Positions 1 to 23,797 are shown, counted from the first letter of the stretch. The stretch: 64,000 nt of DNA from a virus (IMGVR_UViG_3300033066_002031:3864-67863); one strand, 5' to 3'. The notes: generated by a model not told the origin, from the letters alone. Made by a program: numbers and translations.

Positions 1-1547
1 CCGAGGATCTCCTGATCATCGCGGCTTGGGCTCGCGACGCCAAGGAGGGTCTGCGAATCCGCTCGACGCCGCAGATCATGCTCGCCATCGCGGCTCACCA
101 CCCGAAGACGAAGCCGTACGTGGCTCGCTACGGCACGGCGATCATGACCCGCGCCGACGACGTCCTCCAGGTCTTCGGGGCTTACCGCGACCTGTTCCAG
201 CGGGGCGAGAAGCTGCTCCACAAGGGCAGCCTGCCGCACGGTCTCCGCAAGGCTCTGGCGTCCGCCCTGGCGTCCCAGTCGCTCTACGGTCTGCTGAAGT
301 ACGACGGCGCGAACCGTCCGAACTTCGCCGACGTGCTCAAGATCGTCTCGGGCGACGCCGCGATGAGGAAGTACGGGCGCCCCGACGGCTACCCGCTGTC
401 GAAGAGCGTCTACAACTATTTCGTCAAGGGCGTCGTGGACGAGAACGCGCCGCAGATCATCAAGGCTCGCAAGGCGTTCTTCGCCTCCAAGGACATCAAC
501 GCCGTCAGCCTGGAGACCCTGAAGGCGGCGGGGCTGACCTGGGAGAACGTGATCTCGCACCTCGGATCGTCGAAGCAGTCGTGGGAACTGGTGCTCCCGC
601 TGATGAACGAGCAGGCTCTGACCCGCAACCTGCGGAACTTCGAGCAGGCTGGCATCAGCGAGAAGTCGTGGGATCTGGTCTACGAGGGCTTGCAGAAGAG
701 CGAGGGCAGCGTCCAGTTGCCGTTCCAGTTCTTCCTCGCCCTGAAGGCGGTGACTTCGACCAACGCCAAGACCGCCGTCGGGATCTGCCTGGACCACTCC
801 TGTGCGTCCCTGCCGGACCTGGACGGCGTCACGACGGTGTTTGTGGACAACTCCGGCTCGTGCCAGTCGGCGAAGGTCAGCGAGATGGGCAGCGCCACCG
901 TGGCGGACGCGGGCAACGTCCTCGCCGCCGTCGTGGCGAAGCGGTACGGTCGCAGGGCTAAGGTCGCCGTCTTCGGCGACCGTGGCATCTGGGTCAACGC
1001 ATCGCACGCCGACTCCTGCCTCTCGATCCACGCCAGCGTCTCCCGAGCCGCGACGAGCGGCAGCGAGACGGACTACCAGATCCTGGGCGCGATGAAGGAC
1101 TGGCGGTGCGGCAAGGTCGGCGTCGGCGCCGCGACCGAGACCGGCTTGTGGCACCTGCTCAAGCACATGATCGACAACAAGATCATGACGGACCGCATCA
1201 TCCTGCTCAGCGATCTCTGCTGCTACACCCAGGGCGACGTGAATTGCAGCGTCGACATGCGAAAGATCCTCGGCATCCCGAATGCCTCGATACAGTCGCT
1301 CATCGACCTGTACCGCCGCCAGGTCAACAACAACCTCCGGGTCTACTCGATCAACCTCAATGGGCACGCCCAGGCTCAGACGAGGGACGACGGCAAGACC
1401 CACCTGATGTCGGGCTGGTCGGAGAAGGTGATCTCGCTCATCGCGGATCTTGAGGCTCCGGTCTCGCCCAACGTCAACACGCCGTCGGTTACGGCGCCGC
1501 CCGTCAAGACCATCGACGTCCTTCGCCAGAAGTATCGTCGGGTCTGA
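1..1547 (+). CDS. rsr: Ro60/TROVE-domain RNA-binding protein with C-terminal vWA domain (5'-truncated by window edge)
   Basis: Frame is open from base 3 (EDLLIIAAWARDAKEGLRIRSTPQIMLA...). It carries TROVE-like motifs (ALTRNLRNF, QLPFQFFLA) and a vWA MIDAS motif (VFVDNSGS ... IILLSD). Confidence 0.85.
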   Translation, partial: EDLLIIAAWARDAKEGLRIRSTPQIMLAIAAHHPKTKPYVARYGTAIMTRADDVLQVFGAYRDLFQRGEKLLHKGSLPHGLRKALASALASQSLYGLLKYDGANRPNFADVLKIVSGDAAMRKYGRPDGYPLSKSVYNYFVKGVVDENAPQIIKARKAFFASKDINAVSLETLKAAGLTWENVISHLGSSKQSWELVLPLMNEQALTRNLRNFEQAGISEKSWDLVYEGLQKSEGSVQLPFQFFLALKAVTSTNAKTAVGICLDHSCASLPDLDGVTTVFVDNSGSCQSAKVSEMGSATVADAGNVLAAVVAKRYGRRAKVAVFGDRGIWVNASHADSCLSIHASVSRAATSGSETDYQILGAMKDWRCGKVGVGAATETGLWHLLKHMIDNKIMTDRIILLSDLCCYTQGDVNCSVDMRKILGIPNASIQSLIDLYRRQVNNNLRVYSINLNGHAQAQTRDDGKTHLMSGWSEKVISLIADLEAPVSPNVNTPSVTAPPVKTIDVLRQKYRRV

Positions 1548-1566
1548 GGCGAACCAGGAATCGGGG

Positions 1567-1595
1567 AGCCCCGTCTATACGACGGGGCTTTTCTT
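1567..1595 (+). terminator. Rho-independent terminator after ro60
   Basis: AGCCCCGTC-TATAC-GACGGGGCT stem followed by TTTCTT. Confidence 0.8.
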
Positions 1596-1613
1596 GTGCA
1601 AACGGTGTTCGCC

Positions 1614-1763
1614 ATGACTCCTCCACTCCCTGATTCCGACGACGACTTTGCCGATTATCCGATCGGCATTTGCCGCCATTGCGACAAAGCGTTCTTGAAG
1701 ACGGAGTTCTTCCTGGAGTTTTGTTCATGGGACTGCGAGGAGCGTTGGCTCAGCGGAAACTGA
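1614..1763 (+). CDS. Small Cys-containing hypothetical protein (49 aa, below the ORF-track cut-off)
   Basis: ATG..TGA, MTPPLPDSDDDFADYPIGICRHCDKAFLKTEFFLEFCSWDCEERWLSGN; CxxC...CxxxC pattern. Confidence 0.45.
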   Translation: MTPPLPDSDDDFADYPIGICRHCDKAFLKTEFFLEFCSWDCEERWLSGN

Positions 1764-1783
1764 ATGGATTCGGTGGATTCGCC

Positions 1784-2998: not shown

Positions 2999-3125
2999 GT
3001 CAGGAGGCGGAATCGAATGTGCGGGCTGCATTGCTCATAAATTTCCCCGCAAGGGGTTGACCACACAGTCGGTAGGATGCTGCCCTCATAAAGCAGAGAC
3101 GGCGGTTCGATTCCGCCTCCTGGCA
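2999..3125 (+). pseudogene. Chimeric tRNA-Met(CAT)-like element: tRNA 3' three-quarters preceded by a CRISPR-repeat-like hairpin and a 19-nt self-antisense segment
   Basis: D-loop AGTCGGTA, anticodon loop CTCATAA, T arm GGCGG-TTCGATT-CCGCC and acceptor 3' strand TCCTGGC are present. The 5' D-stem strand is missing, and 2999-3017 is complementary to the T loop/acceptor strand (3106-3124). Confidence 0.55.
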
Positions 3126-3139
3126 TTAAGGAGACGACG

Positions 3140-3493
3140 ATGACGCTCGACGATCTGAAGGCTGACATCGCCAGCGACATCCCGAGTGACGGGACGCCGC
3201 AGTTTGGGATCATACTGCTGATGGTGATCGGTGCGTTGGTCAGCGAAATCATCCACTGGATCTTCAAGCGGTACACCGACAAGCGGGAAGCCGCCGCCCA
3301 GTGCGTCGTCTACTTCCAGCACTTCGGTCCCATCAAGCGAGTTGCCCTGGTCGCCAGGGCTGTGGCGCTGAAGCATCGCTTCGGCGTCGTCTCGACGTCG
3401 AACGAGAAGATCGTCGATACCACCGTCGGGAAGCTCCGCACCTTGTCGGCGGACGACTTCCTGGCTCTCGCGAAGAACATCGGAGCGGCGTGA
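3140..3493 (+). CDS. Hypothetical protein with one hydrophobic segment
   Basis: AAGGAG RBS, 117 aa. Confidence 0.65.
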   Translation: MTLDDLKADIASDIPSDGTPQFGIILLMVIGALVSEIIHWIFKRYTDKREAAAQCVVYFQHFGPIKRVALVARAVALKHRFGVVSTSNEKIVDTTVGKLRTLSADDFLALAKNIGAA

Positions 3494-3828: not shown

Positions 3829-3919
3829 CGCCTGGTGGCTCGAATAGTTAGGCTCCGGTTTTACACACCGGCACACCGGCATAAACCGGTTCAAGTAGGT
3901 GCAAGTCCTACCCAGGCGA
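3829..3919 (+). tRNA. tRNA-Val(TAC)-like gene with long variable arm and atypical T loop
   Basis: Acceptor CGCCTGG/CCAGGCG+A; anticodon arm CCGGT-TTTACAC-ACCGG; V-arm ACCGG-CATAAA-CCGGT; T arm GTAGG-TGCAAGT-CCTAC. Confidence 0.7.
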
Positions 3920-3931
3920 CTTAAAAATACC

Positions 3932-3975: not shown

Positions 3976-4046
3976 TCCCCGAAGGTGTTGCGGCAGCATT
4001 CCGCTTTGGTATGGCGGCGGACCGGGTTCGACTCCCGGTCGGGGAT
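3976..4046 (+). tRNA. tRNA-Thr(GGT), CCA not encoded
   Basis: Acceptor TCCCCGA/TCGGGGA; anticodon arm CCGCT-TTGGTAT-GGCGG; T arm CCGGG-TTCGACT-CCCGG. Confidence 0.75.
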
Positions 4047-4061
4047 CTTAGGACAACGATC

Positions 4062-4556
4062 ATGAGCCGATACAGATTTCTCGTCTCGTCCCGCGTCAAT
4101 GCCGAGGCGACGACCCGCACCGGCATCCAGGACTTCGACGGCAACGACGTCGACTACGCCGTGGTGTCGATCCGAGACCCCAAGGCTCCGGTTCCGAATC
4201 TGCATCGCTCTCCCAGGCTGATCAGCATCCTCTCGCTGGCGTTCCACGACGCCGACGACAAGTGCAACGACAAGCCGTATCAGTTGATGACCAACGCCGA
4301 CGCCAAGAAGGTGTACGACTTCGTCTCGACGATGATGAAGGGCGGCGTCGACACGTTCCTGATCCACTGCGAGCTTGGAATCTCCCGCTCGGCTGGCTGC
4401 GCCGCCGCGCTCAGCAGGATCTTCAACGGCGACGACAGCCGGTATTTCATGACGGGCGGTCCTTACGGCTCGTCGATGTACCGACCCAACATGTTCATCT
4501 ACCGCAAGGTGCTCGAAGCCGGTGGCTACTCCCTAAAGCCGATAGGAGCGGAGTAA
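4062..4556 (+). CDS. PTP/dual-specificity-phosphatase-like protein
   Basis: HCELGISRSAG = CX5R active-site loop; VVSIRDP N-terminal motif. Confidence 0.8.
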   Translation: MSRYRFLVSSRVNAEATTRTGIQDFDGNDVDYAVVSIRDPKAPVPNLHRSPRLISILSLAFHDADDKCNDKPYQLMTNADAKKVYDFVSTMMKGGVDTFLIHCELGISRSAGCAAALSRIFNGDDSRYFMTGGPYGSSMYRPNMFIYRKVLEAGGYSLKPIGAE

Positions 4557-6744: not shown

Positions 6745-7126
6745 CGTCTGGATCAATCGCTACGTCCTGGCACCGTACGCTCCGTTTCACGATTGGAACG
6801 AGCACATTTTCAAAGCCAGCACCCAGATCCCGATGGGGCAGTTGACGACGTGGAAGCCGCTCGATCCCTGGTACTACAGGCTCGGCACTATTCAAACCTA
6901 CGACCCCGGCGGCGACGTCTGCGAACGCCACGTCAGGGTGTTCCTGCCGATGATCGGCTTGCGGAAACCGATCGAAGGCGAGAAGAAGACCGGAAAACCA
7001 CCATTGACCTTGCTCCCCGGAAGTGAATACGGAATCGTGACTCTGTTCGCTCCGTGCGAGTTGATGGTGGGTGATGGACCAGAGACACATGATCCTCTAC
7101 GTGGGCGACATCCCGCTCAGGCTTAA
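6701..7126 (+). CDS. Hypothetical protein
   Basis: 141-aa ORF overlapping both neighbours. Confidence 0.45.
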   Translation: MLPNMRLFLEFRQPDVWINRYVLAPYAPFHDWNEHIFKASTQIPMGQLTTWKPLDPWYYRLGTIQTYDPGGDVCERHVRVFLPMIGLRKPIEGEKKTGKPPLTLLPGSEYGIVTLFAPCELMVGDGPETHDPLRGRHPAQA

Positions 7127-7949: not shown

Positions 7950-8424
7950 GTCGCAACACTACAAACTCCGTCAGGAGTTGACCACGCATCCTTGCCTCCG
8001 ATGTAAATAGATAGGTTCTCGCGTCGCAACACTACAAACTCCGTCAGGAGTTGACCACTACATGGATCAGGACAGCGTCCGCGAGCCCGTCGGGGAGTCG
8101 CAACACTACAAACTCCGTCAGGAGTTGACCACTACATGGATCAGGACAGCGTCCGCGAGCCCGTCGGGGAGTCGCAACACTACAAACTCCGTCAGGAGTT
8201 GACCACGCTACCATGCAGCCCATCGATGCGAACGTGCCGATAACTGTCGCAACACTACAAACTCCGTCAGGAGTTGACCACTGGTGAACCGTGTTAGCAA
8301 GCTCTCCACAGTGGGCGTCGCAACACTACAAACTCCGTCAGGAGTTGACCACGAGTCGATCGTGACCGAGCCGCCGGAGCCGGTCAGGGTCGCAACACTA
8401 CAAACTCCGTCAGGAGTTGACCAC
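7950..8424 (+). CRISPR. CRISPR array: 7 identical 36-nt repeats GTCGCAACACTACAAACTCCGTCAGGAGTTGACCAC, 6 spacers (37, 38, 38, 39, 35, 36 nt)
   Basis: Repeats start at 7950, 8023, 8097, 8171, 8246, 8317, 8389; internal hairpin AACTCC-GTCA-GGAGTT; spacers 2 and 3 identical; no cas gene nearby. Confidence 0.97.
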
Positions 8425-8572: not shown

Positions 8573-8596
8573 TAAAGTATCCTATCTTTTTTATGC

Positions 8597-8818: not shown

Positions 8819-9016
8819 TAAGATACAACACGGGCGATGATCGGCATTGGAGACCGAGCCGCACTCGCATTGCGGAGGCAACCCGTTCGAATCGGGTATC
8901 GTCCACTCTGTTTACATGTTCACTATATTGCTGGAGCCAGCAAGATGATCGACAAAATCTTTTCACGGTGCGGTTTCCTTTAGTGTGGCTCAACCGCCAC
9001 GCGAAAGGAAACTGCA

Positions 9017-9331
9017 ATGGGATGGCGAGAGCGGAACCGACCCGCAGATTACACGGCGATCTACGGGTTCCACAAGAACGGCGTCTGGGTTTCGATGTGG
9101 CGTGGATGGCACAGCGGCGGAAGCTGCCGAAGCTTTCGCCCAATCCGCACCACGGCTGAGAAGCGGGATTGGGATCGCGAGTACGGTCGGGCGAAGCGGT
9201 CGCCTCGGCAACTCCCGATGTATGAGGACGAGCGAATCCGCTGCGTCCAGCGTAGCTGGAAAGCCCAGCGACGCCATCAGTACAAGGTGATCGATATGAA
9301 CACGAAGCGAAAGGTTGGGTCCGCCTGTTGA
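9017..9331 (+). CDS. Basic Arg/Trp-rich small protein, MGWRE family paralog 1
   Basis: Starts MGWRER, has RSWKAQRRHQYK near the C-terminus. Confidence 0.75.
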   Translation: MGWRERNRPADYTAIYGFHKNGVWVSMWRGWHSGGSCRSFRPIRTTAEKRDWDREYGRAKRSPRQLPMYEDERIRCVQRSWKAQRRHQYKVIDMNTKRKVGSAC

Positions 9332-9364
9332 AGTTCGCATTTCGCGAACAGAACAGGAGATCCG

Positions 9365-9655
9365 ATGGGCTGGAGAGAAAAAGGGGCTCCGGAGTTTTAC
9401 CGGAACCACCCGGTCAGGGACTGTCGCAGCGGCTCTTACTGGTGGGGCAAGAAGAGGACGAAGGGCGGGTATCGCCGGGAGCCTTCGCTTTATCGCGAGC
9501 TTCACAACGTCGGCGATCCGCTCTACGCACCGAGAGCCAAGCGGTCGTCCAGGCTGAAGAAGTGGTTTTGCTGGGACTGGGAGCCGACCAAAACGCAGTG
9601 GCGGTCGTGGAAGCACTACCGCTCGACGCAATACAAGGTCGTCAGGACGACGTAA
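9365..9655 (+). CDS. Basic Arg/Trp-rich small protein, MGWRE family paralog 2
   Basis: MGWREK...RSWKHYRSTQYK; AGGAG RBS. Confidence 0.75.
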   Translation: MGWREKGAPEFYRNHPVRDCRSGSYWWGKKRTKGGYRREPSLYRELHNVGDPLYAPRAKRSSRLKKWFCWDWEPTKTQWRSWKHYRSTQYKVVRTT

Positions 9656-9940
9656 ATGGGATGGCGTGAAAAAGGACCGCCGCCGGTTCGGAAAACAACG
9701 ATCGACCTTGGGTACGGAAGCGTCTGGCACAAGGTCTTTTGGCACGGCAACGGCGGTCCCGTCAGGTCGCCTCATCGTCATCCCGCCCTGATGAGCGAGC
9801 GGCGGGCATGGGACGAGCAGTACGCGAGACGATCGCGACGCTGGACGACCAAGACGCTCGCCTGGATCTACAAGTCGGGTCGCAAGCCGCGATCCTGGAA
9901 AAACTACCGCGATCACCAATGGAAGCCGGTGGTCGCGTAA
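9656..9940 (+). CDS. Basic Arg/Trp-rich small protein, MGWRE family paralog 3
   Basis: MGWREK...RSWKNYRDHQWK; starts immediately after the previous stop. Confidence 0.75.
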   Translation: MGWREKGPPPVRKTTIDLGYGSVWHKVFWHGNGGPVRSPHRHPALMSERRAWDEQYARRSRRWTTKTLAWIYKSGRKPRSWKNYRDHQWKPVVA

Positions 9941-9944
9941 TTAC

Positions 9945-10027
9945 GGTGGGGAAGCGAATTGGAAAGCAGCCTGATTGCTAGTCAGGTGCCCGTAAAAGGG
10001 TTGCGAGTTCGAGCCTCGCCCCCACCG
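9945..10027 (+). tRNA. tRNA-Ser(GCT)
   Basis: GGTGGGG/CCCCACC+G73; CCTGA-TTGCTAG-TCAGG; long V-arm CCC-GTAAAA-GGG. Confidence 0.85.
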
Positions 10028-10034
10028 CTTTCTG

Positions 10035-10259: not shown

Positions 10260-10344
10260 GGGTCGTGGTGGCGAGGAGCCTGAACCGCCTCCTAAGCGGT
10301 TTTTGCCGAAAGGCAATTGCCGGGTTCGAATCCCGGACGACCTA
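10260..10344 (+). tRNA. tRNA-Arg(CCT) with 5-nt D loop and long variable arm
   Basis: GGGTCGT/ACGACCT+A; D arm GGC-GAGGA-GCC; AACCGC-CTCCTAA-GCGGTT; V-arm TTGCC-GAAA-GGCAA; CCGGG-TTCGAAT-CCCGG. Confidence 0.75.
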
Positions 10345-10349
10345 CTGAC

Positions 10350-10417
10350 GGCTCGCGTCCTGGAGACAGGCGGGTCTTCTACACCTGCCCAGCCCAGTTC
10401 GACACTGGGGCGGGCTA
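10350..10417 (+). tRNA. Non-canonical tRNA-Arg(TCT), 68 nt
   Basis: GGCTCGC/GCGGGCT+A; no nt 8-9; D arm GTC-CTGGA-GAC; 7-bp anticodon stem GGCGGGT-CTTCTAC-ACCTGCC; T arm CCCAG-TTCGACA-CTGGG. Confidence 0.75.
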
Positions 10418-10430
10418 CTGACTGATTGAC

Positions 10431-10500
10431 GGCTCGCGCCCTGGAGGCACCGGCGGCTTCGAACCGCTGGCATCGCAAGGTTCGACCCCTTGGCGAGCTA
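10431..10500 (+). tRNA. Non-canonical tRNA-Arg(TCG), 70 nt
   Basis: GGCTCGC/GCGAGCT+A; D arm GCC-CTGGA-GGC; CCGGCGG-CTTCGAA-CCGCTGG; CAAGG-TTCGACC-CCTTG. Confidence 0.75.
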
Positions 10501-10506
10501 CTCGAC

Positions 10507-10576
10507 AGCCTGCGTCCTGGAGACACCCGAGCTTGCGAAGCTCAGGCATAGTCGGGTTCGACCCCCGAGCAGGCTG
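10507..10576 (+). tRNA. Non-canonical tRNA-Arg(GCG), 70 nt
   Basis: AGCCTGC/GCAGGCT+G; D arm GTC-CTGGA-GAC; CCCGAGC-TTGCGAA-GCTCAGG (one mismatch); TCGGG-TTCGACC-CCCGA. Confidence 0.75.
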
Positions 10577-10580
10577 CTGA

Positions 10581-10651
10581 CCCCCGGTGGTGAAATGGTA
10601 TGACACATGCTCGACACGCATGAGTAGAAGGTTCGATTCCTTCCTGGGGGA
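10581..10651 (+). tRNA. tRNA-Val(GAC), C at position 33
   Basis: CCCCCGG/CTGGGGG+A; CATGC-TCGACAC-GCATG; GAAGG-TTCGATT-CCTTC. Confidence 0.7.
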
Positions 10652-10676
10652 CTTTACCAACCAGTCCTGGAGCAAT

Positions 10677-10925
10677 GCGATGAGCAATCGGAAGAGCGAA
10701 AATCTCATGGCGTGGATCTCGGTTTGCATCGGCTTGGGCTTATGGGTAGCCTTCGCCGGAGGTTGCTACACTCTGTTTTCCGGGCAGGGCGATCTGCATG
10801 AGTTCAAGATCGCGATGACCAACTTTCTGTTCGCCTGGATGCAAACCGCCTTCGTCCTTCGCCACCTTGACAATCTCAACGGGTTTCATGTGACCGAGAG
10901 GGAGAAGTTGGTCTACTCTCGGTAA
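10677..10925 (+). CDS. Small membrane protein
   Basis: Two hydrophobic segments. The longer ORF-track start overlaps tRNA-Val, so an internal ATG is preferred. Confidence 0.5.
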   Translation, partial: AMSNRKSENLMAWISVCIGLGLWVAFAGGCYTLFSGQGDLHEFKIAMTNFLFAWMQTAFVLRHLDNLNGFHVTEREKLVYSR

Positions 10926-10936
10926 GCAGTAGTTAC

Positions 10937-11019
10937 AGCAGGGCTATCCGATTGGCGACGGAATCCGCTTGGAAGGCGGACGTGCGAAAGCCTTGAGGGT
11001 TCGACTCCCTCCCCTGCTG
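10937..11019 (+). tRNA. tRNA-Ser(GGA)
   Basis: AGCAGGG/CCCTGCT+G73; TCCGC-TTGGAAG-GCGGA; long V-arm. Confidence 0.88.
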
Positions 11020-11030
11020 CTTGGTTTTAC

Positions 11031-11120
11031 AGAAGGGCAAGCCGATTGGCGACGGTATCCGCTTCGAAAGCGGACGAGCGGCTCAATGCCGCCTTGAGGG
11101 TTCGACTCCCTCTCCTTCTG
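11031..11120 (+). tRNA. tRNA-Ser(CGA)
   Basis: AGAAGGG/TCCTTCT+G73; TCCGC-TTCGAAA-GCGGA; V-arm GCGGC-TCAAT-GCCGC. Confidence 0.88.
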
Positions 11121-11134
11121 CTGCGGTCATTGAT

Positions 11135-11208
11135 GGGGGTTGTGATGTAATTGGATAGCATCCCTGATTGTGCGTCAGGTCGTGCCGGTTCGAGTCCGGT
11201 CAAGCCTA
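11135..11208 (+). tRNA. tRNA-His(GTG), imperfect acceptor stem
   Basis: CCTGA-TTGTGCG-TCAGG; GCCGG-TTCGAGT-CCGGT; possible G-1; one G-G mismatch in the acceptor stem. Confidence 0.7.
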
Positions 11209-11209
11209 C

Positions 11210-12502: not shown

Positions 12503-13090
12503 ATGAGCGGCGTATTGACCCGCCCGGTTTTGGTCCTCAATCAGTCCTGGATGCCCATCCACGTTTCCGAGGTCGCCTCGGTCGTGACGAAGCTCTGGAA
12601 CGACGTCTTCAAGGCGATCGACCCGGAGACCTACGGGCTCCACACCTGGGAAGAGTGGATCGAACTGCCGGTCGGTGAAAGTGAGCCATGCATCCGCACC
12701 GGGAAGCTGAAGATCAAGGTTCCCGAGGTCGTGTGTGCGTTCCGCTACGACAAGATGCCTGCGGCGGCGGTCGTGTACAACGCCCGCAACGTCCACAAGC
12801 GGGACCACTACACCTGCCAGTATTGCGGGGCTCAGCCGGGGCTCGACGGCGTCACGATCGACCACGTCGTGCCGAAGGCTCAGGGCGGCGGCTCGAACTG
12901 GCTCAACTGCGTCTCGTGCTGCTCGCCGTGCAACGCCAAGAAGGCTGACCGCACGCCCGAGCAGGCTGGCATGAAGTTGAGGCGGCAGCCGTTCAAGCCG
13001 GAATTCAAGGCGTTCTGGCAGGAGCAGGGCGCCAGGGTCGCAAGCTGGGAGAGGTTCGTCCGGCACGCGCCGGTTATGAGCTATGCTTGA
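12503..13090 (+). CDS. HNH endonuclease (McrA/HNH_5-like)
   Basis: VLVLNQSW start; RD.YTCQYCG..TIDHVVP...GG...WLNCVSCCSPCNAKK. Confidence 0.9.
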   Translation: MSGVLTRPVLVLNQSWMPIHVSEVASVVTKLWNDVFKAIDPETYGLHTWEEWIELPVGESEPCIRTGKLKIKVPEVVCAFRYDKMPAAAVVYNARNVHKRDHYTCQYCGAQPGLDGVTIDHVVPKAQGGGSNWLNCVSCCSPCNAKKADRTPEQAGMKLRRQPFKPEFKAFWQEQGARVASWERFVRHAPVMSYA

Positions 13091-13119
13091 AGCGTCGCCC
13101 CTTCGGGGGCGACCAATTA

Positions 13120-13194
13120 GAGTGGCGAAGATCGCGGGTAGCGGCGGCGTCTCTGCAAAAGACGTATACATCGGTTCGACTCCGACGCCACTCT
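13120..13194 (+). tRNA. tRNA-Cys(GCA)
   Basis: GAGTGGC/GCCACTC+U73; CGTCT-CTGCAAA-AGACG; TTCGACT T loop. Confidence 0.8.
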
Positions 13195-16015: not shown

Positions 16016-16365
16016 ACCGCCTCCGCCTTTCGGCGGCGGCTTTCCATCTGTTCAGCCGAAGCTGAGCGACAGTTCTAAGGCTGGTTTACATTTCAGCCTG
16101 AGCCAGCCCTTGCGGGCTGGCGGCGGATTCAATCGCGAAGGTTATGCGGAATGCCAGGCGATCCCCTGAAGCCGTTCCCTCCGTCGCCACGACGGTGGTG
16201 CGTTTGAGACAGCCGGGCGGAAACCTTCCGCGATGCCGACAACAGCAGGATAGGTCGCGTCTTGAGACGCGACCAGGGTTACATATCATTCTTTTTGCAA
16301 GAAGAAACTATTCCTCCAGCGGATTTAGCCGCTGGTCTCCCATCCGGATTCAAAATGAGGCAACG

Positions 16366-17386: not shown

Positions 17387-17794
17387 ATGCGTTGTTTCGT
17401 TATAGTTATTGCTTTTCTGTTCACGTCGGTTTCGATCTCTCACTTCCGCTATTTGCAGAAGCTGGAAACCAAGATCGAAATGATGGAGTCGTACGTCGAC
17501 CAGTCCCGCAAAGAATTGGCGACGCTGACGCGGCTCAACGATCTGCAAGCGGGGCATATGAGCCTCATAGTCGAGACGCAGATGCGGCTCATGCACCGCG
17601 TCGTCCCCCATGTGTCGACGAACAACTACTGCCCCGACTGCGTCGAATACAAGCAGCACATCGACAAGGTCACGAGCGATTTCGAATCTCACGCAGGCGA
17701 CACGGGCAGGACCGAGACGCAGCGTGTCAAGGAGCGAGTCCTCAACGCGATGGCAATGCCAGAGCGGGAGGTCTACGACGGAGAAGACCAGTGA
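17387..17794 (+). CDS. Membrane-anchored coiled-coil hypothetical protein
   Basis: N-terminal hydrophobic helix, heptad region, CPDC motif. Confidence 0.6.
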
Positions 17795-18225
17795 GAATCG
17801 AGATCAGCAGGAAGGACGTCCTCCGAGCGACATTTAGAGCCGGGGGACCTGGCGGGCAGAATCAGAACAAGGTCGAGACGGCGGTGCGGCTGACTCACCT
17901 ACCAACCGGCGTCGTAGCCGAATCGAGGGTCGAGCGGACCCAGGAAGGCAATGAGCAAAGAGCCTGGAAGCTGCTCATTTGCAAGATCGTAAAATCCCAC
18001 GAAGATCGTCTTGCCAACGAGAGGCGAGACAGGTATAATGCAAAAGCCGACGCAGCTTTCGGCAGCCAGATTCGCACGTACGTCCTCGACGGCGGCAAAC
18101 CCCGCGTCGTCGATCACGTCACGGACGTCAAGGCTGATCCAAACGACGTCGTCTTCAAGGGGCGTCTCGACGCCCTCATCACGGCGAACATGATCTTCAG
18201 GCACAGAAAACAAGCAAAATCGTGA
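17791..18225 (+). CDS. Stand-alone GGQ peptidyl-tRNA hydrolase (release-factor catalytic domain, PrfH/ArfB-like)
   Basis: [25 protein letters not shown] and SQIRTYVL. The GTG start overlaps the upstream stop (GTGA), and there is no N-terminal codon-recognition domain. Confidence 0.85.
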
Positions 18226-19052: not shown

Positions 19053-19081
19053 TTGACAACGGTTCCGAGTCGTGATAGGAT
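19053..19081 (+). promoter_or_regulatory. Sigma70 promoter for the ncRNA/tmRNA unit
   Basis: TTGACA-17 nt-TAGGAT. Confidence 0.75.
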
Positions 19082-19099
19082 ACCTACATCTGACGCAGT

Positions 19100-19177
19100 G
19101 AGAACAAGGTTGCATGGAAATGCGGGTTCAAATCCCGCCGCATGCTAGTGGGTCTAGTGACATGCCACCTTTTTCTC
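19100..19177 (+). ncRNA. Candidate Y-RNA-like (permuted tRNA-elbow) RNA
   Basis: Terminal stem GAGAA.AGGT.GCATG / CATGC.ACCT.TTCTC encloses GAAAT, a T arm (GCGGG-TTCAAAT-CCCGC) and then a D-like arm (GCTAG-TGGGT-CTAGT). Confidence 0.55.
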
Positions 19178-19183
19178 TTCAAG

Positions 19184-19546
19184 GGGCGCGTTCTAGAATC
19201 GAATCGCGTCGAGACTGAGATACAGTGCGAGCCGTGCTTGGTCGAGCGGGCACGTTAAAAATCGACCGAAACCTTAGCTGCGAACGACACCGTTCCCTTC
19301 CGTCTCGCCGCCTGATCGGCGAGAGGATCGGACGCAAGGCTCCATCCTGGAGGGCTTTGCGTCCGAGCGTCAAACCAGGATAGGGCAGCGTCAGTTCTGA
19401 CCGGTCGCCGCCCGAAACAAAAACGCCAGATCGCCTGAAATGATTGTGCCGAGTGCAATCTTCAAGGCTAAACCTTCATTCGGAAACGCTCGTAGTGCTG
19501 GTCTTTGCCTGACCCGATGACAGCGGTGCAAGTCCGCTCGCGTCCA
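19184..19546 (+). ncRNA. ssrA: tmRNA, tag peptide ANDTVPFRLAA
   Basis: 5' GGGCGCG pairs with 3' CGCGTCC+A, including G3-U70; tag ORF 19280-19315 ends LAA-stop; T arm AGCGG-TGCAAGT-CCGCT. Confidence 0.92.
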
Positions 19547-19595
19547 ATTGATGCAAGCTGTTTGTTCGCAAGGTCTTATAGCTAGAAAGGTTGCC

Positions 19596-20592: not shown

Positions 20593-20749
20593 ACCCGCCT
20601 AGCTCAGTCGGCAGAGCACCGACGAAACGATGGTCTCATGTTGGCGGAATTCGGGCGACGGTGTACAACGCCGTCCGCGTGACTCCAATGTGTGGCATGA
20701 TCACATCGTGACGTGTCGGAGGTCCGTGGTTCGATCCCATGGGCGGGTA
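20593..20749 (+). ncRNA. tRNA-like RNA 1 with a 91-nt insert replacing the anticodon loop
   Basis: ACCCGCC/GGCGGGT+A; TA-GCTC-AGTCGGCA-GAGC; CCGAC[20624-20714]GTCGG; AGGTC; CGTGG-TTCGATC-CCATG. Confidence 0.8.
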
Positions 20750-20760
20750 CTCTTACTGAC

Positions 20761-20924
20761 ACCCGGTTAGCTCAACTGGTTAGAGCGCCGTCCCCTGGAT
20801 GGTGGACCCGGTCGTGGAGCCGCAGGAGGTTGCGCAGCCTCCGGTAGCGACGAAACGGCATGGTCTGCACGATCGAATCCGGGAACATGGCGGAGGCTGC
20901 GAGGTTCGAATCCCGCACCGGGTA
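20761..20924 (+). ncRNA. tRNA-like RNA 2 with a 96-nt insert replacing the anticodon loop
   Basis: ACCCGGT/ACCGGGT+A; TA-GCTC-AACTGGTTA-GAGC; CCGTC[20793-20888]GGCGG; AGGCT; T loop TTCGAAT. Confidence 0.8.
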
Positions 20925-20949
20925 CTTCTACTTATGGAGCAGCAACGTA

Positions 20950-21346: not shown

Positions 21347-21420
21347 GCCTCCGGAGTGTGTTGGTCAGCACGCAACGACTTCGAGCGTTGTAGTTCGGGT
21401 TCGAATCCCGACGGAGAGCA
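21347..21420 (+). tRNA. Atypical tRNA (TCG/Arg-like) with 8-nt anticodon loop and bulged acceptor stem
   Basis: GCCTCCG/CGGAGAGC; CAACG-ACTTCGAG-CGTTG; TCGGG-TTCGAAT-CCCGA. Confidence 0.6.
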
Positions 21421-21440
21421 ATCCGGGAATAGAGGTCAAA

Positions 21441-22031
21441 ATGATTTTCGAGTCGCACATCACCGTCGAAGGCGTTTCGCTGCCGCGATTCAAGGCGATG
21501 TGCCGCCAGGCAGACGTCAAGCCGGTGCATATCGTCAGCGACACGGGCTCCGGCGTCGAGCAGTTGATGTCGGCTCACTTCCATCATGTGCGGAGCTTCC
21601 CGCAGGCGTATGCCGAGATGGAGGATCTCTGCCGAACGTTCCATCCAGCCGTAGTCCGATCCAAGCTCGAATACATCCCGCGACCCAAGGACGTCGACCC
21701 GCCGACGATCTTCCTGTACGAAGAATGGCATTTCAAGTTCGAGGTGGCGTTCGACTACGTCGAGACGCTGCGGAATCTCGCCGCATCGGCGGGATTCAAG
21801 ACCTCGATCAACGCCGTGCGGCAGCCCCAGGATTCCGAGACGATGTTCGTCTTCGCCACCACGAGGAGCCGCGAGTCGAGCGAATCATTTCGCGATTCGC
21901 TGTTCGGCGTCGAGACGCTTTACTGGAAGCCGATCAACTCGATCCACGAATGCGTGGTGTATGACTCCAATCCTGGGGTCGACCGCTACTGGTTTTGCGA
22001 CTGCCCGTTGAAATCCACCGATCGGATCTGA
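21441..22031 (+). CDS. Hypothetical protein
   Basis: GAGG RBS; followed by terminator ACCGCCG/CGGCGGT + T tract (~22058-22086). Confidence 0.65.
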   Translation: MIFESHITVEGVSLPRFKAMCRQADVKPVHIVSDTGSGVEQLMSAHFHHVRSFPQAYAEMEDLCRTFHPAVVRSKLEYIPRPKDVDPPTIFLYEEWHFKFEVAFDYVETLRNLAASAGFKTSINAVRQPQDSETMFVFATTRSRESSESFRDSLFGVETLYWKPINSIHECVVYDSNPGVDRYWFCDCPLKSTDRI

Positions 22032-22124
22032 CTGGCGTACAATCAAGGACGGATCTGAACCGCCGGAGAGATTCGGCGGTTTTTTTGTTGAAATGTGTTG
22101 CATTCGTCAAATCGAGGCGACATA

Positions 22125-22904
22125 ATGTCGCTTCTGGAATACCGGGAGAAGCTCGTGTTCAATCCGGCGGACATCGTTACGATCCTGGCGACCATCGGGA
22201 TGCTCGTCGTCCTTGAGGGTCTGCTTTCCGCAGACAACGCCCTCGTGCTTGCCGTCATGGTCAAGCACCTGCCGCACGTCGACCAGAAGAAGGCGTTGCG
22301 GTACGGCATCTTCGGGGCGTTCGCCTTCCGCCTCGTCGCGGTCCTATTCGCCGGAATCCTGCTGGATTTCTGGATCTTCAAGATCATCGGCGGCGGCTAC
22401 CTGCTCTACCTGGCGTTGGAAAATCTTCTGAAGCATGGCGACGACGGCGACGTTGCGTCTCGCGAGCGGAGCTTCTGGGGGACCGTGATCGGCGTCGAAC
22501 TAGCCGACATCGCGTTCTCGATCGACTCGATCCTCGCCGCCGTCGCGATGGCGGAAGGCTTGCCCAAGCACCTGCATTCGGCGTCGCTGCTGGCGTTGTC
22601 GCTGAAGACCTGGACCGTATACGTCGGCGGCGTGCTCGGCATCATTACGATGCGATTCGTCGCGGGCAAGTTCATCGGGCTTCTTCGCCGTTATCCAAGG
22701 CTGGAAACCGGCGCCTACTATCTCGTGCTCTGGATCTCGTTCAAATTGATCGGCTCCGGGCTGCACAACGCCCTCGCGGGCAACCCGCAGTACAACCATT
22801 TGCCGCTGGAGATGAACGAGTACGTCTTCTGGGGCGGCATGCTCACGATCTTCGCCTCTTGCTTCCTTCTCCCTTCAAAGGGCAAGGAGTCGACGCCGAC
22901 ATGA
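22125..22904 (+). CDS. terC: TerC-family membrane protein
   Basis: LEGLLSADNALVLAVMV..LP...KALRYGIFGAFAFR; ADIAFSIDSILAAVA; GVLGIITMRF. Confidence 0.9.
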   Translation: MSLLEYREKLVFNPADIVTILATIGMLVVLEGLLSADNALVLAVMVKHLPHVDQKKALRYGIFGAFAFRLVAVLFAGILLDFWIFKIIGGGYLLYLALENLLKHGDDGDVASRERSFWGTVIGVELADIAFSIDSILAAVAMAEGLPKHLHSASLLALSLKTWTVYVGGVLGIITMRFVAGKFIGLLRRYPRLETGAYYLVLWISFKLIGSGLHNALAGNPQYNHLPLEMNEYVFWGGMLTIFASCFLLPSKGKESTPT

Positions 22905-23521
22905 TGAAGATGAGGGCACTCAAAGTTCGAGGCATCTGGTTCACTCTGGCGATGATCTGGACCGGCGTCCTGATCGCCGCCTGTATCGGTCAATACAAGG
23001 CTGCGGCGCGGCACGAAAAAATCATCAGCGACATCGCCAAGGAGTGCGAAGCCGCCTCCAAGGTGTCGAAGATCGCCAGGGACTTTCAGACGGCTTCTTC
23101 TCTCGTGGTCATGTGCGTCTTCGAGCCAGACGAAGCCAGGGCTCTTCAGGCGAGGGCGATGTTCGACGCCGCCGACGACTCGCTCGCGTCCCTGGTGCTG
23201 GTTGATGCCGAGCGGTACGCCAATTTCGCCCATGTCATCGGAATGTCCAGGGAGTATCTCGACGTCGAGACGCTCAAAAAATCCAAAGAGCCGTTCTCGC
23301 ACATTCTTTTCACGAGCACGACCTGCGTCACGACGGTGAACGCCGAGGCGGCTAAGATCATCGAGTCTCACACCAACGTGAGCGAATCGGCGAAGCCGTT
23401 CGGGGGCGACAAGGCGATCCCGCTTGTGGTCGTCGGCGTCGGCGTCATGATCTTCGGCGGCATGCTGGCGTCGTTGCGGACGCCACAGGTCGATCAGGAC
23501 GAATCCCAGCCTGAAATTTGA
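22901..23521 (+). CDS. Two-TM membrane protein
   Basis: Hydrophobic helices at both ends; ATGA overlap with terC. Confidence 0.6.
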   Translation: MMKMRALKVRGIWFTLAMIWTGVLIAACIGQYKAAARHEKIISDIAKECEAASKVSKIARDFQTASSLVVMCVFEPDEARALQARAMFDAADDSLASLVLVDAERYANFAHVIGMSREYLDVETLKKSKEPFSHILFTSTTCVTTVNAEAAKIIESHTNVSESAKPFGGDKAIPLVVVGVGVMIFGGMLASLRTPQVDQDESQPEI

Positions 23522-23584
23522 CCTATTCTGAAATCGAGGAACCTGGGTTTTCTCGATTGAAAGAAAAGTGTAGAATAAAAACCA

Positions 23585-23797
23585 GACCGGGCAGGAGGCG
23601 ACGAGCCTTCTGCCTGAGTCTCTCCGGAAGGCGATCGCCTTACCGAAGCCCGAGAGCGATCTTGGGAATGTTTAACCTCGACATGACGTCGGGGCTTAGC
23701 CCAGGGATGGGCTGCGATCGTAAGATCGTTCTGCGCGTCAAGGACGACGTGCAGGTAGAGCCTAAATAAATGGATTGTCCGATAAATAGGCTTCTAC
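23585..23797 (+). ncRNA. Candidate structured ncRNA (multi-hairpin)
   Basis: At least 7 consecutive hairpins, three with GNRA loops (GCGA, GGGA, GTAA); no convincing ORF. Confidence 0.45.

What the first reader, a model, noticed from the sequence alone, without database searches (positions are those of the whole stretch)
1..23797. Possible undescribed Ro60 / tRNA-mimic / ribosome-rescue system on a phage accessory arm
One co-oriented arm encodes Ro60/TROVE, a tmRNA, a stand-alone GGQ hydrolase, an HNH nuclease, a CX5R phosphatase and three basic RSWK paralogs. It also carries at least four classes of deviant tRNA-like RNA: short-D-arm Arg tRNAs, insert-bearing tRNA bodies, a permuted T/D RNA and a self-antisense tRNA-Met chimera. 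Known: bacterial Ro60 binds tRNA-mimicking Y RNAs (YrlA), and tmRNA, ArfB and PrfH rescue stalled ribosomes. Inference: the phage protects translation against host tRNA- or rRNA-cleaving defences using decoys, replacement tRNAs and rescue factors.
Basis: partly seen in the sequence, partly recalled or inferred. Interest (0 to 1): 0.75.

Follow-up and report, generated by a model that had tools for sequence, protein, structure and literature searches.

The report
Phage RNA toolkit, not one system
An uncultured phage, probably of planctomycete bacteria, carries real Ro60, tmRNA, release-factor-fragment and odd tRNA genes on one arm, but they are separate swappable modules of a kind already seen in large phages, not one new integrated system.

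Summary

The reading as one Ro60/decoy/rescue system is not supported.

1. Ro60 has its own partners. Five or six YrlA-type Y RNAs lie just upstream of the window. They carry a signature (GGTGCAG-N5-GGYTACTTC) shared with 39 units beside Ro60 genes in 14 Planctomycetota loci. No RNA on the arm has it.
2. In the closest relative (about 75-80% identity), the 3.1-kb Y RNA+Ro60 cassette is missing at the syntenic site. So is the 6-kb block holding the tRNA cluster, TnpB, HNH and lectin. The upstream ORF, GGQ gene, tmRNA and twin tRNA-like bodies are kept.
3. None of nine other Ro-bearing phages has an RF-1 gene.

The Ro60 + RF-1 + tmRNA + tRNA combination already exists in Bxz1-type mycobacteriophages. 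This scan also noted similar toolkits on other phage DNA.

Worth keeping:
- GGQ and tmRNA co-occur: six of eight RF-1 phages have a tmRNA, against one of nine controls (p=0.015).
- A covarying compact tRNA-Arg quartet covers all six Arg codons.
- Two conserved tRNA bodies carry 90-nt anticodon-arm inserts.

The parts
1..1547 (+). Ro60/TROVE gene, 3' 1547 nt. The full gene is L003 3551-5410 (619 aa). Its Y RNA array lies at L003 2540-3497, upstream of the window.
   Evidence: Pfam TROVE 64-73 bits. It is 50-58% identical to TROVE proteins of Planctomycetota MAGs. It matches the phiLo phage Ro60 structure 9KOP at E 4e-14. YrlA hits of 31 and 38 bits lie upstream.
2999..3127 (+). Remodelled tRNA-Met ('body 3'). 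The anticodon arm (CAU) to the 3' end is retained. The 5' part is replaced by an antisense leader and hairpins, one of them a repeat-like hairpin ending GGGGTTGACCAC.
   Evidence: The fold gives a 20-bp 5'/3' helix. The relative L172 has an intact 73-nt tRNA-Met(CAT) at the syntenic site. The repeat motif is at 3053-3064.
3829..3920 (+). tRNA-Val(UAC), 92 nt, with a long extra arm
   Evidence: ARAGORN and Rfam tRNA 35.6 bits. Relatives L172 and L174 have a 75-nt Val(TAC) here.
3976..4047 (+). tRNA-Thr(GGU), canonical
   Evidence: ARAGORN and Rfam 42 bits. Conserved in L172 and L174.
4062..4556 (+). HCX5RS-motif protein, a putative cysteine phosphatase (164 aa as called)
   Evidence: Motif HCELGISRS. 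DSPc 19.9 bits is below the cut-off of 33.5. Only 3 relatives exist, at 80-82% identity, one named 'predicted protein tyrosine phosphatase' by JGI.
7950..8424 (+). CRISPR-like array of seven 36-nt repeats. It is on the arm but not part of the claimed system.
   Evidence: A promoter-like site lies at 7721-7749.
8832..8906 (+). tRNA-Ala(CGC)
   Evidence: ARAGORN. L172 has tRNA-Ala(TGC) at the syntenic site.
9017..9940 (+). Three tandem basic RSWK paralogs (104, 96 and 94 aa). They are orphans.
   Evidence: No Pfam or PHROG hit. The Atlas model is disordered.
9945..10028 (+). tRNA-Ser(GCU)
   Evidence: ARAGORN and Rfam 38.2 bits.
10260..10577 (+). Four tandem compact tRNA-Arg-like genes (CCU, UCU, UCG, GCG). 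In the UCU, UCG and GCG copies nucleotides 8-9 are absent; the CCU copy has a short connector instead. All four share a 3-bp D stem, a 5-nt D loop and a 7-bp anticodon stem. The CCU copy also has a long extra arm.
   Evidence: ARAGORN permissive mode and folds. 9 of 21 pairs show compensatory double changes among three copies. No Rfam tRNA hit at E<=5. A promoter-like site lies at 10194-10222.
10581..11209 (+). Canonical tRNAs Val(GAC), Ser(GGA), Ser(CGA) and His(GUG)
11170..12451 (+). TnpB (IS605 OrfB, 417 aa) with a RAGATH-18-like 3' RNA. This is a mobile element.
   Evidence: Pfam OrfB_IS605, TNB and HTH domains. RAGATH-18 30 bits at 12383-12451.
12503..13090 (+). HNH endonuclease (195 aa)
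   Evidence: Pfam HNH_5 47.9 bits and HNH 42.9 bits. It lies in the 6-kb block that L172 lacks at the syntenic site.
13119..13194 (+). tRNA-Cys(GCA)-like RNA with a 6-bp anticodon stem
   Evidence: Rfam tRNA-Sec model 32.9 bits, sequence and fold. ARAGORN does not call it.
17387..17794 (+). Orphan 135-aa ORF. Its stop overlaps the GGQ start (GTGA). It has a hydrophobic N-terminus, a helical hairpin and a CPDC loop.
   Evidence: Conserved upstream of the GGQ gene in L005, with its C-terminal end also in L006 and L008. 3 hits among 1.8 billion representatives. AlphaFold mean pLDDT 70, two long helices.
17791..18225 (+). Stand-alone GGQ protein (144 aa), an RF2 C-terminal fragment (domain 3 plus the end of domain 4)
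   Evidence: Pfam RF-1 88 bits. TIGR00020 positions 221-352, 119 bits. Aligns to E. coli RF2 residues 232-361.
19053..19183 (+). Promoter-like site (TTGACA-17-TAGGAT) and a tmRNA leader carrying a T-arm hairpin plus a second hairpin
   Evidence: Not conserved in L005, whose leader carries a repeat-like hairpin instead. No Ro60 signature.
19184..19549 (+). One-piece tmRNA, tag ANDTVPFRLAA, G3-U70 pair
   Evidence: Rfam 103 bits against GA 47, ARAGORN, alignment with four planctomycete tmRNAs.
20594..20749 (+). tRNA-shaped body 1: normal acceptor, D and T arms, with about 88 nt in place of the anticodon loop
   Evidence: Of 44 pairs, 2 are compensatory and none is broken against L005.
20763..20925 (+). 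tRNA-shaped body 2, with a 96-nt insert
   Evidence: Of 49 pairs, 7 are compensatory and none is broken against L005.
21347..21419 (+). tRNA-Ser(CGA)-like gene. It is an insertion relative to L005.
   Evidence: ARAGORN and Rfam 32 bits. The L005 alignment skips window 21350-21440.

Best explanation
The arm is a mosaic accessory region of an uncultured siphovirus-type phage, probably infecting Planctomycetota. It is built from independent, exchangeable modules that each act on host RNA metabolism or translation.

Module A is a canonical Ro60 ribonucleoprotein cassette of about 3.1 kb. It contains five or six YrlA-type Y RNAs plus Ro60, of the type found in planctomycete chromosomes. By analogy with known Ro60-Y RNA-PNPase complexes, it most likely redirects a host exoribonuclease. 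This step is inferred.

Module B is a variable tRNA block. It includes a quartet of compact tRNA-Arg genes covering all six Arg codons, and it is interleaved with mobile genes (TnpB, HNH). The tRNAs supply or replace host tRNAs. This step is inferred.

Module C is the conserved core: a coupled gene pair (an orphan helical protein and an RF2-fragment GGQ hydrolase), then a separately promoted tmRNA, then two tRNA-shaped RNAs with long anticodon-arm inserts. The tmRNA is predicted to be charged with alanine and to tag peptides on stalled ribosomes using host SmpB. The GGQ fragment lacks the stop-codon-reading domain and most likely releases peptides from stalled ribosomes without reading a codon. 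Both steps are inferred from family knowledge.

The modules share a theme, not a mechanism.
For: Phage identity: terminase, portal, protease, major head and tape-measure genes lie on the - strand, in a 67.9-kb IMG/VR record.

Host clade: the Ro60 is 50-58% identical to TROVE proteins of Gemmataceae, Gemmata, Urbifossiella, Thermoguttaceae and Planctomycetaceae MAGs.

Module A: YrlA hits lie at L003 2693-2767 and 3112-3174. Six units share one fold. The signature GGTGCAG-N5-GGYTACTTC occurs in 44 units, 39 from 14 planctomycete Ro60 loci and 5 from the phage. In the phage it occurs only upstream of Ro60.

Modularity: in L172, synteny jumps from window -1450 to 1638 and from about 9918 to 16011. 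There is no Ro60 by tblastn and no Y RNA signature. No Ro60 above 58% identity exists in 5.8 billion proteins, although that relative's other proteins are in the collection. L005-L008 keep the GGQ gene with the end of the upstream ORF or the tmRNA, and L005 keeps the upstream ORF, GGQ gene, tmRNA and twin bodies together. Several promoter-like sites sit before RNA genes.

Across phages: RF-1 is present in 0 of 9 Ro-bearing phages. A full-length tmRNA is present in 6 of 8 RF-1-bearing records against 1 of 9 Ro-bearing records without RF-1, p=0.015.

GGQ identity. tmRNA features.

Structural selection on the odd RNAs.

Literature: Y RNAs next to Ro60 in more than 250 bacteria and phages (PMC4201824); a phage Ro60 that binds phage Y RNAs and host PNPase (PMC12135203).
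Against: - No expression or binding data exist, so every function is inferred.
- L172 and L005 are separate short contigs of one metagenome assembly. Ro60 or the tRNA block could lie elsewhere in that relative's genome.
- The host assignment rests on one possibly transferred gene and its RNAs. The phage tmRNA is not close to the four planctomycete tmRNAs compared.
- The co-occurrence samples are small, chosen by hand and not phylogenetically independent. Very large phages often carry tmRNAs anyway.
- The YrlA hits are below Rfam's gathering score (31-38 bits against 69).
- The twin tRNA bodies, the RSWK paralogs and the 135-aa ORF have no assigned function, so a hidden link between modules cannot be excluded.
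- No phage SmpB was found, so tmRNA function depends on an unverified host partner.
Confidence: 0.7

Rival explanations
1. One integrated system in which Ro60 binds the deviant tRNA-like RNAs of the arm as decoys, while replacement tRNAs, the tmRNA and the GGQ factor restore translation after host nuclease attack.
For: All the parts are co-oriented within 24 kb. Ro-like genes sit in or next to tRNA clusters in four other phages. Bacillus phage G has a tmRNA 3 kb from its TROVE gene. ScottMcG has all three gene types.
Against: The Ro60 clade signature is present only in the upstream Y RNAs and absent from every arm RNA. The Ro60 cassette is missing at the syntenic site of the closest relative, which keeps GGQ and tmRNA. 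RF-1 is present in 0 of 9 Ro-bearing phages. In ScottMcG the three genes are spread over 32 kb. The arm also carries unrelated genes and several promoter-like sites.
Confidence: 0.07
2. A narrower counter-defence reading without Ro60. The compact tRNA-Arg quartet is a nuclease-resistant replacement set for all Arg codons, aimed at an Arg-tRNA-directed anticodon nuclease of the colicin D type or at the phage's own host shut-off. GGQ and the tmRNA clear the ribosomes stalled by such cleavage.
For: The four anticodons cover all six Arg codons. The shared non-canonical design covaries: 9 of 21 pairs show compensatory changes. The quartet has its own promoter-like site. The altered 7-bp anticodon stem and reduced D arm change surfaces that nucleases read. 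Phage tRNAs that escape anticodon nucleases through loop changes are published (PMC10264068). GGQ and tmRNA co-occur across phages.
Against: No nuclease, host or expression data exist. The Arg block is absent at the syntenic site of the closest relative, which still keeps GGQ and tmRNA, so the two are not obligately linked. The phage's tRNA anticodons match its own most-used codons, and AGG makes up 20% of Arg codons, which also fits plain supply. Whether ArgRS charges these tRNAs is unknown.
Confidence: 0.2
3. The deviant tRNA-like RNAs are non-functional debris. They are tRNA genes damaged by insertions of a mobile hairpin element and by recombination in a fast-changing arm.
For: Body 3 derives from an intact tRNA-Met seen in L172, and it carries a repeat-like hairpin. 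Val(UAC) has a 17-nt insert that relatives lack. The same hairpin type is inserted in L005's body 1 and in its tmRNA leader. tRNA genes come and go between relatives.
Against: The twin bodies keep 93 of 93 predicted pairs, with 9 compensatory changes, across about 24% divergence, inserts included. The compact Arg genes covary in every stem. Body 3 is retained in the 93% relative L174.
Confidence: 0.12

Closest known systems
Bxz1-type (Bixzunavirus, cluster C) mycobacteriophages, e.g. ScottMcG
   Same: One phage genome carries a TROVE/Ro60 gene, a stand-alone 'RF-1 peptide chain release factor' gene and a full tmRNA. That these phages also carry many tRNAs is from my own knowledge.
   Different: There the three genes are spread over about 32 kb of a 154-kb myovirus genome. 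The RF-1 protein is shorter, a GGQ domain only (118 aa). The hosts are actinobacteria. No compact Arg quartet or insert-bearing tRNA bodies are known there.
Bacterial and phage Ro60-Y RNA (YrlA) modules (Chen et al. 2014, PMC4201824; Thermus phage phiLo Ro60, PMC12135203)
   Same: The TROVE protein has tRNA-mimicking Y RNAs encoded directly beside it. The order T arm, acceptor-like hairpin, D arm is enclosed by a terminal stem. The phage copy is related to a host-clade copy.
   Different: Five or six tandem units is more than the two to five per locus seen in the planctomycete loci examined here. The Rfam YrlA score is below threshold, at 31-38 bits against 69. The Planctomycetota-type terminal signature is not in the Rfam hits. 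Binding is untested.
Translation-related gene complements of large and huge phages
   Same: tRNAs, tmRNA, release-factor-like genes and RNA-surveillance genes occur in varying combinations. The Lak and LR7565xx huge phages tested here carry RF-1 hits, and most of them carry a tmRNA.
   Different: This phage is only about 68-77 kb, a siphovirus-type genome, yet it carries the same kinds of genes.
ArfB and PrfH stop-codon-independent GGQ rescue factors (PrfH-RtcB: PMC9304027)
   Same: A GGQ peptidyl-tRNA hydrolase domain without a functional stop-codon reader, so codon-independent release on stalled ribosomes is the expected activity.
   Different: The best match is RF2 residues 232-361, not ArfB (35.6 bits, GGQ motif region only) or PrfH (61.5 bits against a cut-off of 166.65). 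There is no ArfB-type basic tail, no RtcB in the phage and no domain 2.
Phage tRNAs that evade anticodon nucleases (van den Berg et al. 2023, PMC10264068)
   Same: Phage-encoded isoacceptors with altered anticodon-arm features could escape host tRNA-cleaving defences.
   Different: Here the change is architectural (D arm, connector, 7-bp anticodon stem). It affects a complete Arg set. No nuclease is identified.

Membership tests
Ro60 / TROVE (Rsr) | TROVE domain above the Pfam cut-off | tested here: met
   PF05731 scores 64-73 bits against a cut-off of 23. 50-58% identity over the full length to annotated TROVE proteins.
Ro60 / TROVE (Rsr) | Similarity to a solved Ro60 ring structure | tested here: met
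   Sequence match to the phiLo phage Ro60 structures 9KOP and 9L5Y, E 4e-14, query residues 266-468. The fold itself was not modelled.
Ro60 / TROVE (Rsr) | Y RNA genes adjacent to the protein gene | tested here: met
   Five or six units lie at L003 2540-3497, ending 54 nt before the start codon.
Ro60 / TROVE (Rsr) | Protein binds the Y RNA terminal stem | not testable with these tools
   Needs RIP-seq or EMSA.
YrlA Y RNA (Rfam RF02553) | Score at or above the gathering threshold (69 bits) | tested here: not met
   31.1 and 37.9 bits, matching only the tRNA-like core (model positions 19-90 and 24-84). Host-clade units score 36-47 bits.
YrlA Y RNA (Rfam RF02553) | T arm, acceptor-like hairpin and D arm enclosed by a stem formed from the 5' and 3' ends | tested here: met
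   Met for units Y2 and Y3. Y5 has the T arm and hairpin only. Y1, Y4 and Yx have the terminal stem only.
tmRNA (Rfam RF00023) | Full-length match above the gathering score | tested here: met
   103.1 bits against 47, model positions 1-374.
tmRNA (Rfam RF00023) | G3-U70 alanine identity pair and a tag reading frame ending in a degron | tested here: met
   The 5' GGGCGCG pairs with 3' CGCGUCC, giving G3-U70. The tag is ANDTVPFRLAA followed by a stop.
tmRNA (Rfam RF00023) | SmpB partner | tested here: not met
   No SmpB (PF01668) in the 67.9-kb record at E<=0.1. A host SmpB is presumed. The record is about 88% complete.
ArfB | GGQ domain plus a C-terminal basic tail helix; NCBIfam NF006718 cut-off 100 bits | tested here: not met
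   35.6 bits, aligned only over residues 2-35. The C-terminal part is homologous to RF2 domain 4 instead.
PrfH | TIGR03072 cut-off 166.65 bits; paired rtcB gene | tested here: not met
   61.5 bits. No RtcB (PF01139) in the record.
Class I release factor RF2 (prfB) | Full-length protein with the PCRF domain and the stop-codon-reading domain 2; TIGR00020 cut-off 370 bits | tested here: not met
   119.5 bits covering only profile positions 221-352. No PCRF hit appears in the GGQ protein or in the upstream ORF. The upstream ORF is not a degenerate RF N-terminus: hhalign probability is 0.4% and the model is helical.
Cysteine (PTP/DSP) phosphatase | HCX5R(S/T) active-site loop | tested here: met
   HCELGISRS at window 4368.
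Cysteine (PTP/DSP) phosphatase | Domain match above the Pfam cut-off, or the fold | tested here: not met
   DSPc 19.9 bits against 33.5. The best PDB match to a DSP has E 0.8. The fold was not modelled.
HNH endonuclease | HNH domain above the cut-off | tested here: met
   HNH_5 47.9 bits against 27.5, and HNH 42.9 bits against 21.4.
Canonical tRNA (Rfam RF00005), for the compact Arg quartet | Score at or above 29 bits; standard D arm and connector | tested here: not met
   No RF00005 hit at E<=5 over 10260-10577. ARAGORN calls all four only in permissive mode. The 3-bp D stem, missing nucleotides 8-9 and 7-bp anticodon stem are seen.

The most novel reading that the evidence does not exclude
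The conserved core is a dedicated phage ribosome-rescue module not yet described. It comprises the orphan helical protein, the RF2-fragment GGQ hydrolase, the phage tmRNA and the twin tRNA-shaped RNAs with long anticodon-arm inserts. In this reading the GGQ fragment works together with the phage tmRNA and/or the non-decoding tRNA bodies on ribosomes stalled by host defence nucleases. The compact Arg quartet would be an add-on that replaces cleaved host tRNA-Arg.
Probability: 0.15. Interest if true: 0.75.

Novelty: new member of a known kind. Interest (0 to 1): 0.42.

Why it matters
As one 'system' it does not hold up, and that is useful. The same gene combination keeps being flagged in phages, and here close relatives show directly that the parts are gained and lost as separate cassettes.

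Three things are still worth attention.

1. Phage RF-like GGQ genes track phage tmRNAs: six of eight against one of nine. That is a testable hint that the two work together in infected cells.
2. A complete, covarying set of architecturally reduced tRNA-Arg genes would make a clean model for asking whether phages redesign tRNAs to escape tRNA-targeting defences.
3. This appears to be a phage of Planctomycetota, a phylum with few known phages. It carries a host-type Ro60 cassette whose conserved Y RNA signature could define the Ro60 binding site for that clade.

Tried and rejected
1. Split release factor. The upstream 135-aa ORF ends in ..AMAMPEREV.., which resembles the end of RF domain 2. Rejected: no PCRF hit at E<=1, hhalign probability 0.4%, and the AlphaFold model is a helical hairpin.

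2. Complex prediction for the 135-aa ORF with the GGQ protein.

3. Permuted (two-piece) tmRNA. Rfam tmRNA_permuted scores 38.5 bits at 19094-19315, below its GA of 47. Rejected: the strand after the upstream T arm cannot pair with the tmRNA 5' acceptor strand, and a full one-piece tmRNA is present.

4. tmRNA leader RNA as a Y RNA. It has no YrlA hit and no Ro60 signature, and L005 has a different hairpin in its place.

5. Hammerhead or other ribozyme in the twin-body inserts. There is no Rfam hit at E<=5, and reading by eye finds no CUGANGA core.

6. Link between TnpB and the CRISPR-like repeats. TnpB's 3' region lacks the GTTGACCAC motif.

7. The repeat in five candidate host-clade genomes. 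Matches were no better than the reversed-pattern control.

8. Close relatives in IMG/VR by Ro60, GGQ, portal or capsid protein. None, or a single distant fragment. No close phage by megablast.

9. Exact-pattern scans of viral contigs for the twin bodies gave only chance hits.

11. GGQ homologues at 49-53% identity (L169-L171) have no tmRNA on their short contigs. This is uninformative.

Full report
WHAT THE DNA IS

The window is bases 3864-67863 of a 67,863-bp IMG/VR virus record, estimated 88% complete. The - strand from about 24.3 kb onward encodes a siphovirus-type structural module: tape measure, head-tail adaptor, major head protein, protease, portal and large terminase. The flagged arm (window 1-23797, + strand) converges on that module and continues 3.9 kb upstream of the window (L003). 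No close relative exists among 50,697 deposited phages. The capsid protein is at most 37% identical to any of them.

CHECK OF THE OBSERVATION

The listed proteins are present.
- Ro60/TROVE. The gene starts at L003 3551, 313 nt before the window, and encodes 619 aa.
- An RF-1-domain GGQ protein at 17791-18225.
- HNH at 12503-13090.
- An HCX5RS protein at 4062-4556. Its DSPc score is below the Pfam cut-off, and it has only three relatives, all at 80-82% identity.
- Three tandem RSWK paralogs.

The tmRNA is full-length (103 bits). It has the G3-U70 pair and the tag ANDTVPFRLAA.

The arm also contains genes the finding does not mention:
- a C5 DNA methylase;
- a seven-repeat CRISPR-like array;
- TnpB with a RAGATH-18-like 3' RNA;
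- a 933-aa lectin/NHL protein;
- TerC;
- upstream of the window, a tRNA-Gly and a SufS-like cysteine desulfurase.

Most other ORFs are orphans. Six promoter-like sites were found, all on the + strand. That total is not above the shuffled expectation (6 against 4.4). Three of them carry an extended -10 element and sit directly before the repeat array, the Arg tRNA set and the tmRNA. Because all non-structural genes of this contig lie on this arm, their co-location is not in itself informative.

RO60 HAS ITS OWN, CANONICAL PARTNERS

The roughly 1-kb non-coding stretch before the Ro60 start codon gives two YrlA hits, at 31 and 38 bits. Both cover the characteristic order of T arm, acceptor-like hairpin and D arm. 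Reading and folding the stretch shows six tandem units whose 5' and 3' ends pair in a terminal stem. Five of them carry the motif GGTGCAG-N5-GGYTACTTC.

The closest Ro60 proteins (50-58% identity) are chromosomal genes of Planctomycetota MAGs. Their flanks hold two to five units with the same motif, and YrlA scores there reach 36-47 bits. In all there are 44 units: 39 in 14 planctomycete loci and 5 in the phage.

A scan of the whole phage genome allowing three mismatches finds the motif only in those five units, plus one hit in the structural module. Shuffled sequence gives 3.5 hits. So none of the deviant tRNA-like RNAs in the window carries the signature of this Ro60 clade's ligands. Ro60 with adjacent Y RNAs, in phages too, is published (PMC4201824; PMC12135203).

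THE GGQ PROTEIN AND THE tmRNA

The 144-aa protein matches RF2 best: TIGR00020 positions 221-352 at 119.5 bits, and E. coli RF2 residues 232-361. It matches PrfH (61.5 bits) and ArfB (35.6 bits, GGQ region only) far less well. It is therefore an RF2 domain-3/4 fragment without the stop-codon reader.

Its start overlaps the stop of a 135-aa ORF. I tested whether that ORF is the missing N-terminal half. It is not:
- it is an orphan;
- profile comparison gives 0.4% probability;
- the model is a hydrophobic N-terminus followed by a helical hairpin.

The phage encodes no SmpB and no RtcB.

L005 (80% protein identity) keeps the full block of upstream ORF, GGQ gene, tmRNA and the next genes. The shorter contigs L006, L007 and L008 (80-97%) each keep the parts they cover.

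THE DEVIANT tRNA-LIKE RNAs

Compact Arg quartet. Four tandem Arg genes (CCU, UCU, UCG, GCG) share a 3-bp D stem with a 5-nt loop and a 7-bp anticodon stem. In the UCU, UCG and GCG copies nucleotides 8-9 are absent. Nine of 21 pairs show compensatory double changes among three copies. Together the four read all six Arg codons.

Twin bodies. Two tRNA-shaped bodies at 20594-20925 have normal acceptor, D and T arms, but about 88 and 96 nt sit in place of the anticodon loop. Against L005, at about 24% divergence, all 93 predicted pairs are kept and nine changed on both sides. These RNAs are under structural selection, and I cannot assign them a function.

Body 3 (2999-3127). It derives from an ordinary tRNA-Met. 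The relative L172 has an intact 73-nt tRNA-Met(CAT) there. In the window, and in the 93% relative L174, the 5' part has been replaced by an antisense leader and hairpins, including a copy of the array-repeat hairpin.

Others. The 92-nt Val(UAC) is 75 nt in relatives. The two-hairpin RNA before the tmRNA is not conserved in L005.

THE DECISIVE TEST: RELATIVES

The CX5R protein led to L172, a 10.5-kb contig from the same assembly as L005. Its synteny with the window runs from window -1450 straight to 1638. The whole Y RNA array plus Ro60 (about 3.1 kb) is replaced by about 210 nt that encode a different small hairpin RNA. There is no Ro60 by tblastn and no Y RNA motif.

Synteny also runs from the third RSWK paralog (about 9918) straight to about 16011. 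The tRNA cluster with the Arg quartet, TnpB, HNH, the Cys-like tRNA and the lectin gene are therefore absent at that site.

No Ro60 above 58% identity exists in the 5.8-billion-protein collection, although that relative's GGQ and CX5R proteins are in it.

One caveat applies: these are short contigs, so the missing pieces could lie elsewhere in that genome.

ACROSS OTHER PHAGES

Nine Ro-bearing phages were tested: hosts Nitratidesulfovibrio, Streptomyces (three), Brevundimonas, Gordonia, Bacillus (phage G), Thermus and Arthrobacter. None has an RF-1 gene. Only Bacillus phage G has a full-length tmRNA. In four of them the Ro gene lies in or beside a tRNA cluster.

Of eight RF-1-bearing phage records, six have a full-length tmRNA: ScottMcG, EniyanLRS, Lak-C1, prophiT49-2 and two huge phages. 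The contrast with one of nine gives Fisher p=0.015. The sample is small and not phylogenetically corrected.

ScottMcG, a Bxz1-type phage, has TROVE, RF-1 and tmRNA spread over 32 kb. The combination is therefore not new.

Earlier notes of this scan report similar toolkits in other phage genomes. Two follow-ups reached the same conclusion, that the combinations vary and there is no fixed system.

VERDICT

The unifying interpretation is not. The arm is a mosaic of exchangeable modules:
- a host-type Ro60/Y RNA cassette;
- a variable tRNA block mixed with mobile genes;
- a conserved GGQ-tmRNA core with two unexplained tRNA-shaped RNAs.

The tRNA anticodons mostly match the phage's most-used codons. 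That fits plain supply as well as replacement. The counter-defence idea remains open for the Arg quartet and for GGQ/tmRNA, without Ro60.

Noticed in passing
L003:2540-3497 (upstream of the window; window position = L003 position - 3863): An array of six tandem Y-RNA-like units lies directly before Ro60. Five carry GGTGCAG-N5-GGYTACTTC, two carry the full YrlA tRNA mimic, and one has only a T arm plus a hairpin. The same motif flanks Ro60 in 14 Planctomycetota loci, usually with one further unit just downstream of the gene. It may define the Ro60 binding site of this clade.
   Followed up: yes
window 7950-8572, 3045-3068; L005 about 3450-3475 and about 1880-1905; L172 about 7240-7850 and about 420-450: The hairpin plus GTTGAYCAC end of the CRISPR-like repeat also occurs singly in several places: inside tRNA-like body 3, inside L005's copy of twin body 1, in L005's tmRNA leader, and in the small RNA that replaces the Ro60 cassette in L172. 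Each phage's solitary copies resemble its own array variant (GGAG or GGGG + TTGACCAC in the window; GGGGTTGTCCAC or GGGGTTGATCAC in the relative). This suggests a shared RNA-processing or RNA-binding signal, or a mobile hairpin. No cas gene was seen, and TnpB's 3' RNA lacks the motif.
   Followed up: partly
phage records: Across annotated phages, short RF-1 (GGQ) genes go together with full-length tmRNA genes: six of eight records, against one of nine Ro-bearing records without RF-1 (Fisher p=0.015). In prophiT49-2 the RF-1 gene lies inside a tRNA cluster next to an RtcB-like ligase.
   Followed up: partly
window 16009-16103: A roughly 95-nt element (a terminator-like hairpin plus CAGTTCTAAGGCTGGTTTAC) sits at rearrangement junctions in two relatives. 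In L172 it follows the RSWK genes directly. In L174 it lies inverted next to window 2293. It may be a recombination hotspot or module boundary.
   Followed up: partly
L003:105-1582: A tRNA-Gly(UCC) and a SufS/CsdA-like cysteine desulfurase (398 aa, Aminotran_5 295 bits) lie at the far end of the arm. A sulfur donor of this type could serve tRNA thiolation, but this was not examined.
   Followed up: no
window 19520-19549 versus L005 about 2250-2285: The T loop of the window's tmRNA reads GGTGCAAGTCC instead of the canonical GGTTCGAnnCC that L005 and four planctomycete tmRNAs keep. Its Rfam score (103 bits) is well below theirs (147-155 bits).
   Followed up: partly
W02 (LuckySocke) 17977-18057; W14 (BRock) 97140-97220: Two Streptomyces phages have 81-nt elements that pass the tmRNA gathering score (57 and 64.5 bits) although they are only tRNA-sized. 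They may be tmRNA-like tRNA domains without a coding part.
   Followed up: no
L008:3-440: In this 1.2-kb contig the ORF before the GGQ gene has a molybdopterin-oxidoreductase-like N-terminus (CRFCGTGC..) joined to the last 20 residues of the phage's 135-aa ORF. This is probably an assembly chimera.
   Followed up: no
window 55312-57903 (- strand): The large terminase is long (863 aa), and its PHROG matches fall in separate stretches. It may contain an insertion or intein. A first-reader note also mentions two ATPase-only paralogs upstream.
   Followed up: no
L011 (about 6442-9986): In one planctomycete chromosome the Ro60/Y RNA locus lies next to an RtcA RNA cyclase gene, echoing the rsr-yrlBA-rtcBA arrangement known from Salmonella (the Salmonella arrangement is from my own knowledge).
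   Followed up: no
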